Positions 57,266-64,000 of a DNA stretch of 64,000 nt are shown piece by piece; positions within the stretch are counted from its first letter, which is position 1; each line of letters opens with the position of its first letter. The notes beneath the pieces were generated by a model that saw nothing but the letters and a program-made list of their open reading frames with translations, was not told the origin of the DNA and made no database searches. Where the stretch lies: positions 518-64,517 of the IMG/VR virus record IMGVR_UViG_3300042402_002715. The stretch is one strand, 5' to 3'. A program made the translations under genes and the position numbers. The DNA is from a virus (lineage: Duplodnaviria > Caudoviricetes).

Positions 57266-57271
57266 TTATTG

Positions 57272-57352
57272 TACTGACGGTTGGACTCGAACCAACGTTT
57301 TAAACTTACCGCTACAGGCATAGATGATATAAGCATCCACTGGTACGTCAGC
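57272..57352 (-). ncRNA. D-arm-less tRNA-Ile(TAT)-like RNA
   Basis: GCTGACG/CGTCAGT acceptor, GGATG-CTTATAT-CATCT arm, canonical T arm; only ~7 nt where the D arm should be, 25-nt variable region. Confidence 0.6.
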
Positions 57353-57358
57353 ATTTAG

Positions 57359-57432
57359 TTGCGTCGTTCTGGAATCGAACCAGATTTATGAGGCTTATGA
57401 GACCCCCCCAGATACCAACCTGTCCACTCGCA
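57359..57432 (-). tRNA. tRNA-Met(CAT), irregular acceptor stem
   Basis: GGGGT-CTCATAA-GCCTC; T arm TCTGG-TTCGATT-CCAGA. Confidence 0.75.
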
Positions 57433-57437
57433 ATATG

Positions 57438-57543
57438 TAGTCAAAGAAGGAGTCGAACCTTCACGAGATAAGTGTGAAAATCACCTTACCCCAAGGAGTT
57501 TTGAGTATTATCTCCCAGCGTCTACCAATTCCGCCACTTGACT
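57438..57543 (-). ncRNA. Aberrant tRNA-Leu(CAA)-like RNA (106 nt)
   Basis: AGTCAAG/TTTGACT acceptor, Leu-type D arm, 13-nt anticodon loop ATAATA-CTCAAAA, ~31-nt variable arm, normal T arm. Confidence 0.65.
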
Positions 57544-57779
57544 GTTTTGAGGTTGAGAGCCTCAGTGTTGTTATGACGTAGTTAATCACACTCCTACTGT
57601 ATTCCTTTCTCAAGGGAACAACACAATTTTACTGTAGTTTAGTAGTTGACTCAAACTCTCGTTTCACCATCTTGAGTCAACAGGTTAATGCACTTTACGA
57701 GTTTCCCGTTTCTTACAACCACAATATTTTCCAATATTTCAAAGAATCCTTTTCCTTATTTGTTTAACAAAGATATGTA

Positions 57780-58598: not shown

Positions 58599-58636
58599 TC
58601 AAAGAACAAAAAAACCCCTCTTTTTTAGAGAGGGGC
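58599..58636 (-). terminator. Attenuator terminator followed directly by boxA-like motif
   Basis: CCCCTCT-CTAAAAA-AGAGGGG-T7 then GTTCTTTGA (58607-599). Confidence 0.75.
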
Positions 58637-58662
58637 TTCAAAATTTTTATATGTATAAAATC

Positions 58663-58731
58663 TTACACCCTCTCCTTAAAAGAATCCTCAGCTAAATCGC
58701 CTCCTATCAATGATATGTGTAAATTTTTCAT
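58663..58731 (-). CDS. Putative leader peptide (22 aa) of the attenuator for tRNA cluster 2
   Basis: MKNLHISLIGGDLAEDSFKERV*; late motif at 58752-59; final codons GAGAGGG complementary to terminator arm CCCTCTC. Confidence 0.6.
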   Translation of the reverse strand: MKNLHISLIGGDLAEDSFKERV

Positions 58732-58790
58732 TTGCGGTTTTTTATTTTGATATAAATATAGTAATAATTTTAAAAGTGTCAAGTTTTATT

Positions 58791-59297
58791 TTAATCTTCG
58801 ATGCTATCAAGTAATTCAACAACCTCATCAACTGATTTTTCTAACACTTTTATATTTTTTATTGTGGCATCATCTTCAGCAAAATCTTCTAAATCTCTAA
58901 CTTTATCATAAGCAGATTCCAAGTCATTTAATAATCCATTAAGATCAATATCATAATCTTCAAAATCACTTTTATGAAGTTTGACACCTTTTTCATTATA
59001 AGACCTAACCAATTGTTTAAGAACACTTAATGTTTTTTTCATTTTGATAAAATCATCCATTAAATCTTCAGCTACTTTATATTGGCCGTGTTCAAAAGAA
59101 TCTCCTTTTATCATTGTTTTTAATTTACCAAATGCAATCATCATTCTACCAACACCATTAAATATTGCCATTGAAATATTGTTTGCGGTTTTTCTAACTT
59201 TCAAATCTTTTTTTACGTTTGGGTAACCATCTTCATTAATTACACGTTTAACAATTCTTGTTAAGTCTGATTCTGTTAATCTTATTATTCTTTTCAT
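58791..59297 (-). CDS. Hypothetical protein, probable internal head protein
   Basis: MKRIIRLTESDLTRIVKRVINE N-terminus; late motif at 59316-23. Confidence 0.65.
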   Translation of the reverse strand: MKRIIRLTESDLTRIVKRVINEDGYPNVKKDLKVRKTANNISMAIFNGVGRMMIAFGKLKTMIKGDSFEHGQYKVAEDLMDDFIKMKKTLSVLKQLVRSYNEKGVKLHKSDFEDYDIDLNGLLNDLESAYDKVRDLEDFAEDDATIKNIKVLEKSVDEVVELLDSIED

Positions 59298-59503: not shown

Positions 59504-59959
59504 TTAACGGCAGTGGTAATCTGCCGCTTTTGTTGCAATTTGATTATGGGGTTTTATATTTGTTTTATATCCCAAGGATGTCGCCCACCCAACAGCTGGT
59601 TGAACCAGTTTTGAACTAAAGTGTTTTTCATCACTATTAAAGTCCAAATCAATTTCAACTTTTACTTTTACTTTCTGGGTTAACCATTCGGCAACCTCAA
59701 TTGAATAATCGGCCTCATTCCAAAGACGTGTCCATTTATCTTTTATTTTTTTCACTTTTTGTTTGTGAAGAATATAATGAACACCCCTATTTCCATACCT
59801 ATATGCTATTACCGTAACATACACGGTACTTCTTCTGTGGTTTTGTGAGTCAGTCCCAATGTGGACTTCCACCCAGGGACATTCTTTTAGAACACCCAAA
59901 GTGTGATTAACCACATCTGGTATTGCAACACCATTAACCGTTCTAAAAACTCTGTTCAT
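59504..59959 (-). CDS. RNase H-like YkuK/DUF458 family protein
   Basis: IGTDSQN, RLWNEA..SIEVA, EIDLDFN..FSS, IKP..ATKAAD. Confidence 0.8.
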   Translation of the reverse strand: MNRVFRTVNGVAIPDVVNHTLGVLKECPWVEVHIGTDSQNHRRSTVYVTVIAYRYGNRGVHYILHKQKVKKIKDKWTRLWNEADYSIEVAEWLTQKVKVKVEIDLDFNSDEKHFSSKLVQPAVGWATSLGYKTNIKPHNQIATKAADYHCR

Positions 59960-60172: not shown

Positions 60173-61027
60173 TCATATACTATCTAACCAAGAATTACCA
60201 AGTTTAACATAATCTTCATTTATCTCATATCCCTCAAAATTACATTCTAAAGTTTTTGAAACAACACATTCACTTCCAGATCCTGCAAATATAATTAAAA
60301 CATTTGGTTTTAATTCTTTTGGTATTGAGGATTTTATTAATTTTTCGGTTAAAGATAATGGTTTTTGTGTTGGGTGTACAATTATTTTATGATTTTCGTG
60401 ACTCTTTTTTTCTTTTGGTTCACAAAAAATGTTACAAGTATCACAATAAAAATACCTTTCTTTTGCACCCGATCCTCCAGCTAATGATGGTATTTTTATT
60501 ACATCCCTTGGTAATGCGCCATTTTCGTTTGCATTATAAATTGTTTCTTTATCACCAAATCTCCCTTTAGTTGCCTTTCTTTTTTTTCCTGCGGCATTCT
60601 TAATAAAACTTTCAGTATAATCTTCTCTAACATCATCCAAATTAAAATTTACAGTTTCACCTTTCCAAACATGGATTATTGATTCGTGACTTCTTTGCCA
60701 AAATTTATAGTGTGGGACCGTTTTATTTGTATAATGCCAGACTAACCATTTTTTTGTTTCATACTTAATATTAACAAATATATGTGCTAAAATCTCACTA
60801 AAACCATAAATAAAAATAGAACCACCAGGTTTTAATACTCTATATGATTCAATAAACCATTCATTACACCAATCCAAATAATCCTTTAATGTTCTTTTAT
60901 CTGAATCATTACCAAAATCTTTACCTATATTATATGGTGGATCTATAATGATTGTATCAATTGTATTGTCTTCTTTTTTTTTTAATTCGATTATACAGTC
61001 AACATTTAATATTTTGTTTTTTAACAT
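60173..61027 (-). CDS. N6-adenine/N4-cytosine DNA methyltransferase (beta class)
   Basis: DPPY, HPTQKP, FAGSGS; small CxxC..H..H insert. Confidence 0.9.
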   Translation of the reverse strand: MLKNKILNVDCIIELKKKEDNTIDTIIIDPPYNIGKDFGNDSDKRTLKDYLDWCNEWFIESYRVLKPGGSIFIYGFSEILAHIFVNIKYETKKWLVWHYTNKTVPHYKFWQRSHESIIHVWKGETVNFNLDDVREDYTESFIKNAAGKKRKATKGRFGDKETIYNANENGALPRDVIKIPSLAGGSGAKERYFYCDTCNIFCEPKEKKSHENHKIIVHPTQKPLSLTEKLIKSSIPKELKPNVLIIFAGSGSECVVSKTLECNFEGYEINEDYVKLGNSWLDSI

Positions 61028-62695: not shown

Positions 62696-62756
62696 CTTTG
62701 TTTCTACAAAGATAATATTTTTTTTTAATTCTTCAGACATTGACTGAATTTTTTTG

Positions 62757-62972: not shown

Positions 62973-63061
62973 TGGAGGAAGAAGTAGGTGTCGATCCCAA
63001 TACCCGCAAAGGTACCACCCGTTTTCAAGACGGGGTCATAGGCCGCTATGATTCATCTTCC
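62973..63061 (-). tRNA. tRNA-Ser(TGA)
   Basis: CCCGT-CTTGAAA-ACGGG; long variable arm; encoded CCA; T loop ATCGACA. Confidence 0.88.
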
Positions 63062-63614
63062 TTTTATTCCAGTCAATTTTTGCTTTTATACTTAATTTTT
63101 CTTTTGTTTCTTTTGAAACGTATAATCCTTTAGTCCATCCTTTTAAAATATAAGCTTCTAGTTCTGTTTTTTTTATTTTTTTATTTACACAATCTTTATT
63201 AATCCATGTGGTACCAAATTGTGAATTTTTTTCACCAGATCCTTGTCCTTTTTTAGTGTTACTTATTTTTAACTTAATATCTTCAGAATGTGTTTTTCCG
63301 TAGAAACCATTTATTTCTAATAATTTACCACCATAACCACCTAAAGCAATATTCATACATAATTTGTCTTTCAATAAACTTTCATTTACAATTTCCTTTT
63401 CTTTATTTATTAGTAAATCCCTGTTTGGGAAAAACTCAATTATTTCTTTTGTGTGGTTTTCAATCCCGTATTTTTTAATTGAGTTCCAAAGTTTTTTTCC
63501 AGACCCCATATATCCATCTTCTAAATTATCTGTCGAATGTATTCCGACATAAAATTTATTTGTTACACTACAAATAATTTTATAAATGTAGTGATGTTTT
63601 TTTTCTACTACCAT
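63036..63614 (-). mobile_element. Free-standing GIY-YIG homing endonuclease (Seg-like, NUMOD3)
   Basis: YIYKII...FYVGIH..Y.GSG, FYGKTHSEDIKLKIS; start ATG 63614; inserted between tRNA-Gln and tRNA-Ser. Confidence 0.85.
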
Positions 63615-63754: not shown

Positions 63755-63770
63755 TTTTTCTTTTTGTTTG

Positions 63771-63843
63771 AGGTTTCTATCAGGGTCGAACTGATGACTC
63801 CGGGTTACAAAGCCGGGATATTACCAAACTATACTAAGAAACC
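63771..63843 (-). tRNA. tRNA-Thr(TGT)
   Basis: CCGG-C-TTTGTAA-C-CCGG; GGTTTCT/AGAAACC acceptor. Confidence 0.85.
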
Positions 63844-63853
63844 AATATAAAAC

Positions 63854-63881
63854 AAAAAACCCAAGGTTTGTTGCCTTGGGT
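63854..63881 (-). terminator. Attenuator terminator upstream of tRNA cluster 1
   Basis: ACCCAAGG-CAACAAA-CCTTGGGT-TTTTT, 10 nt before tRNA-Thr. Confidence 0.75.
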
Positions 63882-63914
63882 CTTATATTCCTTTATTATG
63901 TAGGTTAATCGTTA

Positions 63915-64000
63915 TTAACTCATAAATGAAAATGCCCTAGACTGTTTAAGCGTGTTATAGCAGAACGACCACTGATTGCTCGGTTGCTTGCTAATGACCA
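63915..64000 (-). CDS. Putative leader peptide of the attenuator for tRNA cluster 1 (5' end beyond window)
   Basis: ...VISKQPSNQWSFCYNTLKQSRAFSFMS-TAA-TAA; GTCTAGGG (63942-35) complementary to terminator arm CCCAAGGC with one mismatch. Confidence 0.5.
   Translation of the reverse strand, partial: VISKQPSNQWSFCYNTLKQSRAFSFMS

What the first reader, a model, noticed from the sequence alone, without database searches (positions are those of the whole stretch)
63846..64000. Second leader-ORF/terminator ahead of the main tRNA cluster, with complementary amino-acid content
Seen: an intrinsic terminator (63881-54) sits only 10 nt upstream of tRNA-Thr, the first of 18 co-oriented tRNAs. It is preceded by an ORF ending ...VISKQPSNQWSFCYNTLKQSRAFSFMS TAA TAA, and GTCTAGGG can pair with terminator arm CCCAAGGC. 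The 27 visible codons contain V,I,S,K,Q,P,N,W,F,C,Y,T,L,R,M, i.e. every amino acid served by cluster 1 except His, and no Gly/Asp/Glu. Those three are the canonical tRNA types found only in cluster 2, and they appear in the other leader. Inference: two matched codon-sampler attenuators divide surveillance of the tRNA pool. Caveats: the start lies outside the window, a second frame is also open (WSLASNR...HFHL*), and this antiterminator is weaker.
Basis: partly seen in the sequence, partly recalled or inferred. Interest (0 to 1): 0.85.

Follow-up and report, generated by a model that had tools for sequence, protein, structure and literature searches.

The report
Mini-gene and terminator heading phage tRNAs
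A conserved 35-codon mini-gene followed by a transcription stop signal sits directly in front of the tRNA genes of a family of freshwater giant phages, and its RNA can fold in mutually exclusive ways, so it may act as a translation-sensing valve on phage tRNA production.

Summary
A strong intrinsic terminator lies on the minus strand (stem 63884-63856, U-run to about 63849), and tRNA-Thr starts at 63843. The window ends at the contig end. A contig identical over the last 166 nt and about 80 related loci show that the open frame is a complete 35-codon ORF (36 in a second clade) with its own promoter. It is not the tail of a long protein.

The frame is conserved, with no stops, in-frame indels and an excess of synonymous changes (p about 0.003 and 0.014 in two clades). 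The terminator, a hairpin holding the stop codon and a helix joining the ORF's 5' and 3' parts are supported by compensatory changes.

In 67 of 68 loci with enough downstream sequence the first tRNA called downstream is tRNA-Thr (65) or tRNA-Trp (2), starting 16-22 nt after the terminator stem where that gap was measured. A related second cassette (window 58601-58789) has a much stronger antiterminator and usually precedes tRNA-Leu.

My best reading, at about 45%, is a ribosome-sensing attenuator. The "complementary amino-acid content" idea fails, because relatives carry Gly and Asp. Nothing is shown experimentally.

The parts
63918..64000 (-). 3' part of the 35-codon leader ORF: the last 27 codons plus 2 nt. 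Its first 8 codons lie beyond the contig end.
   Evidence: The full ORF comes from L034, which is identical over 166 nt, and from 59 of 59 uncut loci. Coding signature.
63912..63917 (-). Tandem stop codons TAA TAA. The first is the conserved stop (TAA or TGA in relatives).
63934..63942 (-). Segment 2 (GTCTAGGGC). It pairs either with ORF codons 5-7 (UCUUAGAC, outside the window) or with the terminator's 5' arm (antiterminator).
   Evidence: helix 2 is 92% paired with 2 compensatory pairs; antiterminator 80-82% paired, with one pair at CG20/UA8..
63926..63932 (-). UUUUCAU, complementary to the start-codon segment AUGAAAA (outside the window).
   Evidence: 7 pairs, 96.8% paired, almost invariant, one G-C to G-U change. 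Also in the minimum-free-energy (MFE) folds.
63904..63919 (-). Hairpin H2 (GUUAAU-AACG-AUUAAC). Its 5' arm contains the stop codon.
   Evidence: 99.2% paired, one pair UA15/AU6, and G-U variants.
63845..63884 (-). Intrinsic terminator: an 11-bp stem, a 7-nt loop and the run UUUUUUGUUUU. Its 5' arm (63873-63882) is segment 3.
   Evidence: 100% paired, 3 compensatory pairs. At least five different stem versions occur in relatives.
63770..63843 (-). tRNA-Thr(tgt), the first gene behind the terminator.
   Evidence: The first tRNA called downstream is Thr in 48 of 49 loci and in 17 of 19 loci.
62707..62714 (-). The next convincing promoter-like -7 box (TATCTTTG), 12 nt before tRNA-Val. It marks the end of the stretch that depends on read-through (Thr, Gln, GIY-YIG ORF, Pro, Lys).
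58601..58789 (-). Related second cassette: promoter, 22-codon ORF MKNLHISLIGGDLAEDSFKERV (58666-58731) and terminator (58639-58611).
   Evidence: (36.4 bits with model R1).

Best explanation
The finding is the 3' two-thirds of a self-contained leader cassette that heads the tRNA gene cluster of a family of AT-rich freshwater jumbo phages. The cassette has, in order: a promoter, a 5' UTR of about 45 nt, a translated 35-codon ORF, a hairpin that contains the stop codon, a spacer of about 20 nt, a strong intrinsic terminator, and then tRNA-Thr 16 nt after the stem.

I propose that it works as a ribosome-mediated transcription attenuator.
- Segment 2 (GUCUAGGGC, codons 27-30) can pair with segment 1 (codons 5-7). 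That leaves the terminator free to form.
- Alternatively, segment 2 can pair with the terminator's 5' arm, which blocks the terminator.
- A ribosome that runs quickly to the stop codon sits beside segment 2 and melts the stop-codon hairpin. The terminator then forms and only the leader RNA is made.
- A ribosome that lags or stalls early in the ORF masks segment 1. Segment 2 then pairs with the terminator arm, and RNA polymerase reads on into tRNA-Thr, tRNA-Gln, the homing-endonuclease ORF, tRNA-Pro and tRNA-Lys.

The net effect would be negative feedback between translation capacity and phage tRNA synthesis.

Shown: the parts, their conservation, the coding signature, the covariation and the fixed position before a tRNA.
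Inferred: that read-through is regulated, and the direction of that regulation.
For: 1. Complete short ORF. It is 35 codons in 59 of 59 uncut loci, in 33 distinct nucleotide versions, with identity down to 63%. A second clade has 36 or 35 codons, reached by in-frame indels.
2. Coding signature.
- Clade 1 has 101 parsimony events: 42 synonymous, 59 non-synonymous and 0 stops. Under column permutation, no stop occurs in 2.5% of trials and at least 42 synonymous changes in 0.34%.
- pN/pS is 0.41 in this frame, against 0.95 and 0.54 in the other two.
- Clade 2 gives 15 synonymous, 25 non-synonymous and 0 stops, p = 0.014.
3. Terminator. It is 100% paired with 3 compensatory pairs. Hairpin H2 is 99% paired with 1 compensatory pair. 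The segment 1:2 helix is 92% paired with 2 compensatory pairs. In clade 2 that helix is replaced by CUAAUA/UAUUAG, and the closing helix, H2 and terminator appear together in 10 of 13 MFE folds.
4. Antiterminator.
- It is 81.7% paired, against 16-48% when the partner is slid.
- One pair is C:G in 20 sequences and U:A in 8, with none broken. Both columns change on the same two branches of a tree.
- The segment 2:3 duplex averages -8.5 kcal/mol and beats every other ORF window in 39 of 49 distinct sequences.
- With the 3' arm removed, 6 of 12 representatives switch to this fold.
5. Position.
- The upstream flank is unrelated between loci, but conservation begins exactly at the promoter.
- The first tRNA called downstream is Thr in 48 of 49 loci, 16-22 nt after the stem. 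In the second set it is Thr in 17 and Trp in 2 of 19 loci.
- There is no TAnnTTTG box between the terminator and tRNA-Thr or tRNA-Gln.
6. Sister cassette.
- It has the same layout.
- Its antiterminator scores -11 to -18 kcal/mol in 17 of 17 distinct sequences, with matched changes such as GAGAGGG/CCCUCUC to GAGAUGG/CCAUCUC.
- tRNA-Leu(taa) is the first tRNA in 20 of 25 loci.
7. RNA libraries. Contigs from 4 of 4 freshwater metatranscriptome runs bridge the ORF, terminator and tRNA-Thr. This is weak evidence.
8. Atypical protein gene. G is at codon position 1 in 2 of 35 codons, against 0.30 in the window's long ORFs.
Against: - The antiterminator is weak. RNAalifold on partial transcripts recovers only GGG:CCC.
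- In 7 of the 15 clade-2 rows that were scored correctly, the duplex is only about -5 kcal/mol.
- The central mismatch is unpaired in 23 of 28 sequences.
- The covarying pair needs a bulged A and rests on only two independent events.
- There is no run of codons for one amino acid, which is the hallmark of classical leaders.
- pN/pS of 0.41 and invariant H7, P14, W18 and Y22 would also fit a functional micro-protein.
- Promoter-like boxes of the same type sit directly before tRNA-Val (62714-62707) and tRNA-Glu (57027-57020) without any leader. At most four tRNAs therefore depend on this terminator.
- In this window the sister cassette is followed by a promoter-like box and a 99-aa ORF, not a tRNA.
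- One database representative (P0003) has a frameshifted C-terminus.
- The RNA contigs cannot separate regulated from constitutive read-through, or from DNA carry-over.
- The host is unknown. The promoter assignment rests on consensus motifs that I recalled.
Confidence: 0.45

Rival explanations
1. It is an ordinary stand-alone micro-protein gene (35 aa) with its own promoter and terminator that happens to lie next to the tRNA cluster. The downstream tRNAs are made by constitutive leakage through the terminator and from internal promoters. The RNA helices tune mRNA stability or translation.
For: - There is purifying selection on the frame and residues are invariant across clades.
- The gene-start context matches other phage genes. 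The ATATTTAT motif lies before the ATG, as it does for the terminase, portal and head genes.
- Internal promoter-like boxes sit directly before tRNA-Val and tRNA-Glu.
- In this window the sister cassette is followed by a promoter-like box and a protein ORF.
Against: - The cassette sits immediately before a tRNA in 67 of 68 loci, although both flanks are mosaic. The sister cassette shows the same in 20 of 25 loci.
- Covariation links an ORF nucleotide to the base of the terminator.
- Synonymous sites at both ORF ends are almost invariant.
- G is at codon position 1 in only 2 of 35 codons.
- No Pfam or PHROG family matches the peptide.
Confidence: 0.3
2. It is a stable, structured small RNA of about 150-190 nt, ended by the terminator or released by RNase P cleavage at tRNA-Thr. 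This would resemble the small stable RNAs that share the T4 tRNA transcription unit. The open frame would be incidental.
For: - The conserved fold has a closing 5'-3' helix, an internal hairpin and a terminator.
- Long stretches are invariant at the nucleotide level regardless of codon position.
- The T4 tRNA precursor also carries species I and II RNAs (PMC2330249, discussion passages).
Against: - The frame is kept open in all 33 distinct 35-codon versions of clade 1 and in all 20 loci of the second set, where indels are in frame.
- Synonymous changes are in excess in two clades.
- The stop codon is kept at the same place, as TAA or TGA.
- No Rfam family matches.
Confidence: 0.12
3. The hairpin is only the terminator of the upstream operon, and the ORF is a chance open frame.
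For: In AT-rich DNA, 64 of 1187 stop-free 35-residue windows across six frames also lack D, E and G. In L010 an upstream same-strand gene ends about 90 nt before the ORF.
Against: The upstream genes differ between loci, yet the promoter, ORF and terminator block is conserved as a unit. The coding signature also argues against it.
Confidence: 0.03

Closest known systems
Leader-peptide (ribosome-mediated) transcription attenuators of amino-acid operons (trpL, hisL, leuL, thrL, pheL). Recalled from general knowledge. The abstracts of PMC1183508 and PMC3082878 were seen in the listing.
   Same: A promoter, a short translated ORF and an intrinsic terminator precede the regulated genes. Four segments have mutually exclusive 1:2, 2:3 and 3:4 pairings, with segment 1 inside the ORF.
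   Different: It regulates tRNA genes of a phage, not biosynthetic enzymes. It has no tandem regulatory codons. The ORF is longer (35 codons) and under purifying selection. Segment 2 also lies inside the ORF. The antiterminator is weak in this cassette. No Rfam leader family matches.
Phage T4 tRNA gene cluster transcription unit (PMC2330249, discussion passages read).
   Same: A promoter lies just upstream of a phage tRNA cluster. A GIY-YIG homing-endonuclease ORF is embedded between the tRNAs. Small non-tRNA RNAs share the precursor.
   Different: The T4 passages describe no ORF or terminator between the promoter and the first tRNA. There, transcription is said to run through the whole cluster.
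T-box riboswitches (recalled).
   Same: The leader chooses between terminator and antiterminator according to the state of the tRNA pool.
   Different: A T-box binds tRNA directly, has no ORF, and controls aminoacyl-tRNA synthetase and amino-acid genes. No T-box match was found here.
Attenuator-derived small RNA rnTrpL (PMC6614838; only the abstract in the listing was seen).
   Same: The terminated leader transcript could be a product in its own right, both coding and acting as an RNA.
   Different: No trans target is known or predicted here.

Membership tests
Intrinsic (Rho-independent) terminator | A G+C-rich stem-loop directly followed by a U-run on the transcribed strand. | tested here: met
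   11 pairs, 5 of them G-C, a loop of 7 nt and the tail TTGTTTTATA following the stem's own T-run.
Intrinsic (Rho-independent) terminator | The stem is maintained by compensatory changes in relatives. | tested here: met
   100% of cells are paired, and 3 pairs show changes on both sides (25 cells).
Leader-peptide transcription attenuator | A short translated ORF lies between the promoter and the terminator. | tested here: met
   A 35-codon ORF in 59 of 59 uncut loci, with a coding signature. Translation itself was not observed.
Leader-peptide transcription attenuator | The terminator lies upstream of the regulated genes with no promoter in between. | tested here: met
   There are 16 nt from the stem to tRNA-Thr, and no TAnnTTTG box before tRNA-Thr or tRNA-Gln. 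This is motif-based only.
Leader-peptide transcription antiterminator (segment 2:3) | A conserved alternative helix uses the terminator's 5' arm. | tested here: inconclusive
   It is 81.7% paired with one perfectly covarying pair. It is best of all ORF windows in 39 of 49 sequences. RNAalifold recovers only GGG:CCC, and it is weak in 7 of 15 correctly scored clade-2 rows.
Leader-peptide transcription attenuator | An anti-antiterminator (segment 1:2) has segment 1 inside the ORF. | tested here: met
   92% paired, 2 compensatory pairs; replaced by CUAAUA/UAUUAG in clade 2.
Leader-peptide transcription attenuator | A run of regulatory codons for the sensed amino acid. | tested here: not met
   The peptide has 17 residue types and no repeats. 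It is therefore not filed as a member of the classical family.
Leader-peptide transcription attenuator | Read-through depends on translation of the leader. | not testable with these tools
   Only RNA-library contigs that bridge the terminator are available.
Any Rfam RNA family / Pfam or PHROG protein family | A significant match to a curated model. | tested here: not met
   only the tRNA reaches its cutoff; 0 families for the peptide.

The most novel reading that the evidence does not exclude
Two paralogous ribosome-sensing attenuators head the tRNA sub-clusters of these jumbo phages. One lies before tRNA-Thr. The other usually lies before tRNA-Leu(UAA). Each terminates transcription when its mini-ORF is translated quickly and lets polymerase through when decoding is slow. 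The phage would thereby raise its own tRNA output exactly when the host tRNA pool is limiting or under attack. This would be the first feedback control of viral tRNA genes by translation speed.
Probability: 0.3. Interest if true: 0.85.

Novelty: new variant of a known kind. Interest (0 to 1): 0.6.

Why it matters
Many large phages carry tRNA clusters, but how their expression is controlled is largely unknown outside T4. The four literature searches run here (listings and abstracts only) turned up no leader-ORF or attenuator in front of phage tRNA genes.

If the cassette really senses translation speed, it would extend classical attenuation from amino-acid supply to the supply of decoding capacity itself. 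It would also give phage tRNA genes a homeostatic, or defence-responsive, logic.

The element is compact (about 240 nt) and widespread in freshwater metagenomes. A stronger sister element exists as well. The idea is therefore directly testable with reporter constructs.

Tried and rejected
- **Tail of a long protein:** rejected. The ORF has 35 codons, with its ATG 142-143 nt before the terminator core.
- **The other open frame is the real one:** rejected. It acquires TGA in L003-type sequences and has pN/pS of 0.95.
- **Complementary amino-acid content:** rejected.
  - Gly and Asp occur in relatives.
  - The chance of no D/E/G in 35 residues is 3.6e-4 for this phage's protein composition. It is 5.4% for stop-free windows in all six frames.
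  - 17 residue types is reached by 10.8% of windows.
- **Known RNA or protein family:** none found.
- **Cultured phage collection:** blastn found only homing-endonuclease and tRNA pieces, and no relative of the leader.
- **Second copy of the leader in the window:** blastn-short found none. The covariance model found the diverged sister cassette.
- **Profile search of 1.84 billion representative proteins:** 3 hits only.
- **RNAalifold on partial transcripts:** it did not recover the antiterminator beyond GGG:CCC.
- two rows (L081, L088) took the wrong CCC as the terminator arm and should be ignored.
- my first strict promoter pattern missed the box before tRNA-Val. I corrected this, so an earlier thought that 11 tRNAs depend on the terminator was dropped.
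- **RNA runs:** 24 runs were listed, most with small shares, and only X1-X4 were laid. Parts without cover, contig ends at 1644 in X4 and contig starts near the ATG are not interpreted.
- **Not used:** structure prediction, complex prediction and the genome-contig collection.
- **Supplements:** supplementary files of papers were not consulted.

Full report
**Where the finding lies.** The window is bases 518-64517 of a 64.5-kb IMG/VR virus contig that CheckV rates 22% complete. Position 64000 is therefore the contig end, and the ORF's start cannot be read in this record.
- The DNA is 30.6% G+C, and long ORFs have A-rich upstream regions with no Shine-Dalgarno sequence.
- PHROG matches identify a large terminase, a portal and a major head protein. 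Two relatives rated 100% complete are 257 and 304 kb, so this is a jumbo phage.
- All tRNA genes lie on the minus strand: 17 by ARAGORN and 18 by Rfam.

**The observation.**
- On the minus strand the scan finds an 11-pair stem-loop at 63884-63856 followed by UUUUUUGUUUU. It is one of only two long minus-strand terminator-like sites in the last 8 kb.
- tRNA-Thr(tgt) starts at 63843, which is 16 nt after the stem.
- Upstream of the terminator, two frames are open to the window edge.

**Extending the sequence.** The terminator core as an exact pattern found 8 viral contigs. Peptide-profile scans then found 11 viral and 59 metagenome loci, and later 20 more new loci, 17 of them from a second clade. 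Some viral and metagenome records are the same contig, so I count distinct sequences.
- L034 is identical to the window over 63835-64000. It supplies the missing part, giving MKTNLRHMVISKQPSNQWSFCYNTLKQSRAFSFMS.
- The ORF has exactly 35 codons in 59 of 59 loci not cut by a contig end, in 33 distinct nucleotide versions.
- Clade 2 has 36 or 35 codons, which differ by in-frame indels.
- The predicted His codon is present at position 7.

**Is the ORF coding?** The evidence says yes.
- In clade 1, 101 parsimony events fall 21, 33 and 47 on codon positions 1, 2 and 3. They comprise 42 synonymous changes, 59 non-synonymous changes and no stop.
- When variable columns are moved to other positions with the same base, only 2.5% of trials avoid a stop and 0.34% reach 42 synonymous changes.
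- pN/pS is 0.41 in this frame, against 0.95 and 0.54 in the other two.
- Clade 2 gives the same picture, with p = 0.014.
- It is nevertheless an odd protein gene. G is at codon position 1 in 2 of 35 codons, against 0.30 in the long ORFs. No Pfam or PHROG family matches.
- One database representative has a frameshifted C-terminus.

**The block is a unit.**
- In alignments the upstream flank is unrelated between loci. Conservation starts at AAACACTTGTnnATTAGAAAAAAATACCTATCTTTGTA.
- I read this as a Bacteroidota-type promoter (-33 TTG, -7 TAnnTTTG). That consensus is recalled, not tested, and the host is unknown.
- The 5' UTR also holds ATATTTATAA a few bases before the ATG. That motif is over-represented in the window, with 26 matches against 15.6 expected, and it precedes the late structural genes.

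**RNA structure (22 distinct clade-1 sequences).**
- The terminator is 100% paired, with three pairs changed on both sides.
- Hairpin H2 (GUUAAU-AACG-AUUAAC), whose 5' arm contains the stop codon, is 99% paired, with one pair UA15/AU6 and G-U variants.
- AUGAAAA pairs with UUUUCAU and is almost invariant.
- UCUUAGAC (codons 5-7) pairs with GUCUAGGG (codons 27-29). This helix is 92% paired with two compensatory pairs.
- In clade 2 that last helix becomes CUAAUA/UAUUAG. The same overall fold is the minimum-free-energy (MFE) structure in 10 of 13 distinct clade-2 sequences and in 12 of 12 clade-1 representatives.

**The antiterminator.**
- For: it is 81.7% paired in 28 sequences, against 16-48% when the partner is slid.
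- For: the pair next to GGG:CCC is C:G in 20 sequences and U:A in 8, with none broken. Both columns change on the same two branches of a tree built without them, with 31 of 31 sequences concordant.
- For: the duplex averages -8.5 kcal/mol and beats every other ORF window in 39 of 49 distinct sequences. Without the terminator's 3' arm, 6 of 12 representatives fold this way.
- Against: RNAalifold keeps only GGG:CCC.
- Against: the central position is unpaired in 23 of 28 sequences.
- Against: 7 of the 15 correctly scored clade-2 rows reach only about -5 kcal/mol.
- Against: the covarying pair needs a bulged A.

**Link to tRNAs.**
- In clade 1 the first tRNA called downstream is tRNA-Thr(tgt) in 48 of 49 loci with at least 150 nt of downstream sequence. 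It starts 16-22 nt after the stem. The remaining locus has a Ser call at 127 nt.
- In the second set, 17 of 19 loci have Thr first and 2 have Trp. The tRNA-Thr sequence itself comes in several quite different versions.
- In the window no TAnnTTTG box lies between the terminator and tRNA-Thr or tRNA-Gln. A doubtful box lies 43 nt before tRNA-Pro. A good one, resembling the leader promoter, lies 12 nt before tRNA-Val.
- Only Thr, Gln, the GIY-YIG ORF, Pro and Lys therefore sit behind the terminator.

**The sister cassette.**
- A covariance model of the leader finds a weaker relative at 58601-58789 (36 bits), and one each in three large relatives.
- It shares the 5' UTR and the terminator style. 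It encodes MKNLHISLIGGDLAEDSFKERV, which is conserved in relatives with one in-frame indel.
- Its last codons are complementary to the terminator's 5' arm and adjoining loop bases. The duplex scores -11 to -18 kcal/mol in 17 of 17 distinct sequences, and the two sides change together in several lineages.
- In 20 of 25 relatives the first tRNA downstream is tRNA-Leu(taa), starting 79-161 nt after the stop. In this window a promoter-like box and a 99-aa ORF follow instead.
It strengthens the attenuator reading of the family, but not the idea of complementary amino-acid content.

**RNA data.** One search listed 24 runs. Logan contigs of four freshwater metatranscriptome runs were laid on L045. 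In all four, a contig bridges the ORF, terminator and tRNA-Thr. Contigs cannot show ends or levels, and DNA carry-over is possible. This shows only that a joined form is present in RNA libraries.

**Comparison with the known.**
- T4 transcribes its tRNA cluster, segB and two small RNAs from a middle promoter just upstream (PMC2330249, discussion passages). Those passages describe no ORF or terminator in between.
- Classical leader-peptide attenuators share the four-segment logic but have runs of regulatory codons, which are absent here. I therefore say the cassette works like one and do not file it as a member.
- Four literature searches (listings and abstracts) showed nothing on attenuators before phage tRNA genes.

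**Verdict.**
- The attenuator reading is the best single explanation, at about 0.45.
- A stand-alone micro-protein gene with a leaky terminator follows at about 0.3, and a structured small RNA at about 0.12.
- The amino-acid complementarity claim is rejected.

Noticed in passing
window 58601-58789 (-): A second cassette of promoter, 22-codon ORF and terminator, related to the leader. Its last codons are strongly complementary to the terminator's 5' arm. In relatives it usually precedes tRNA-Leu(taa). In this window a promoter-like box and a 99-aa ORF follow it.
   Followed up: yes
window 63036-63614 (-): A GIY-YIG-like homing-endonuclease ORF lies between tRNA-Gln and tRNA-Pro. Its Pfam score is 20.9 bits, just under the cutoff of 22.6. 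blastn hits seg-type endonuclease genes of T4-like phages. The arrangement recalls T4 segB. Relatives such as L010 lack the insertion.
   Followed up: partly
window 57270-57650 (-): Rfam calls a 106-nt tRNA at 57438-57543 (33 bits) that ARAGORN misses. By eye, further tRNA-like sequences lie on either side of it. These may be tRNAs with insertions or unusual arms.
   Followed up: no
window, about 20 sites on the minus strand between 23.9 and 59.3 kb: The motif ATATTTAT occurs 26 times against 15.6 expected, with no shuffle reaching 26. It sits 5-40 nt before the starts of the terminase, portal, head and other genes. It is probably this phage's late promoter or start-region motif, and it also precedes both leader ORFs.
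   Followed up: partly
window 58594-58564, 58168-58138, 57050-57020 (-): There are three copies of TTGGTAGATT followed by about 13 A-rich bases and then TAnnTTTG. These promoter-like repeats lie within the tRNA region. The last is 18 nt before tRNA-Glu.
   Followed up: no
window end (64000) and loci L023, L044, L075-L080: Many assemblies, including this contig, break inside or just after the leader ORF. The flank upstream of the promoter is unrelated between relatives. The leader appears to mark a mosaic junction.
   Followed up: partly
window 58791-59297 (-); L010 7692-8129 and 10715-11041: A paralogous family of small proteins that begin MK(K/R)IIRLTESDL.RI(V/I)KR is scattered among the tRNA genes. 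It has no Pfam match.
   Followed up: no
window 59504-59959 and 60173-61027 (-): An RNase H-like protein (PF04308) and an N6/N4 DNA methylase (PF01555) are embedded in the tRNA cluster.
   Followed up: no
window about 57650-57700 (-): A perfect 10-bp inverted repeat, GTTGACTCAA...TTGAGTCAAC, lies downstream of a TATCTTTG box and ahead of the tRNA-like region. It has no T-run.
   Followed up: no
L093, L096, L097 (clade 2 leaders): In 3 of 13 clade-2 folds the 5' part CAACUAAUAAAC pairs instead with GUUUAUNAGUUG, which spans the last codons and the stop. It forms a perfect 12-bp helix in L093. This may be a further alternative helix.
   Followed up: no
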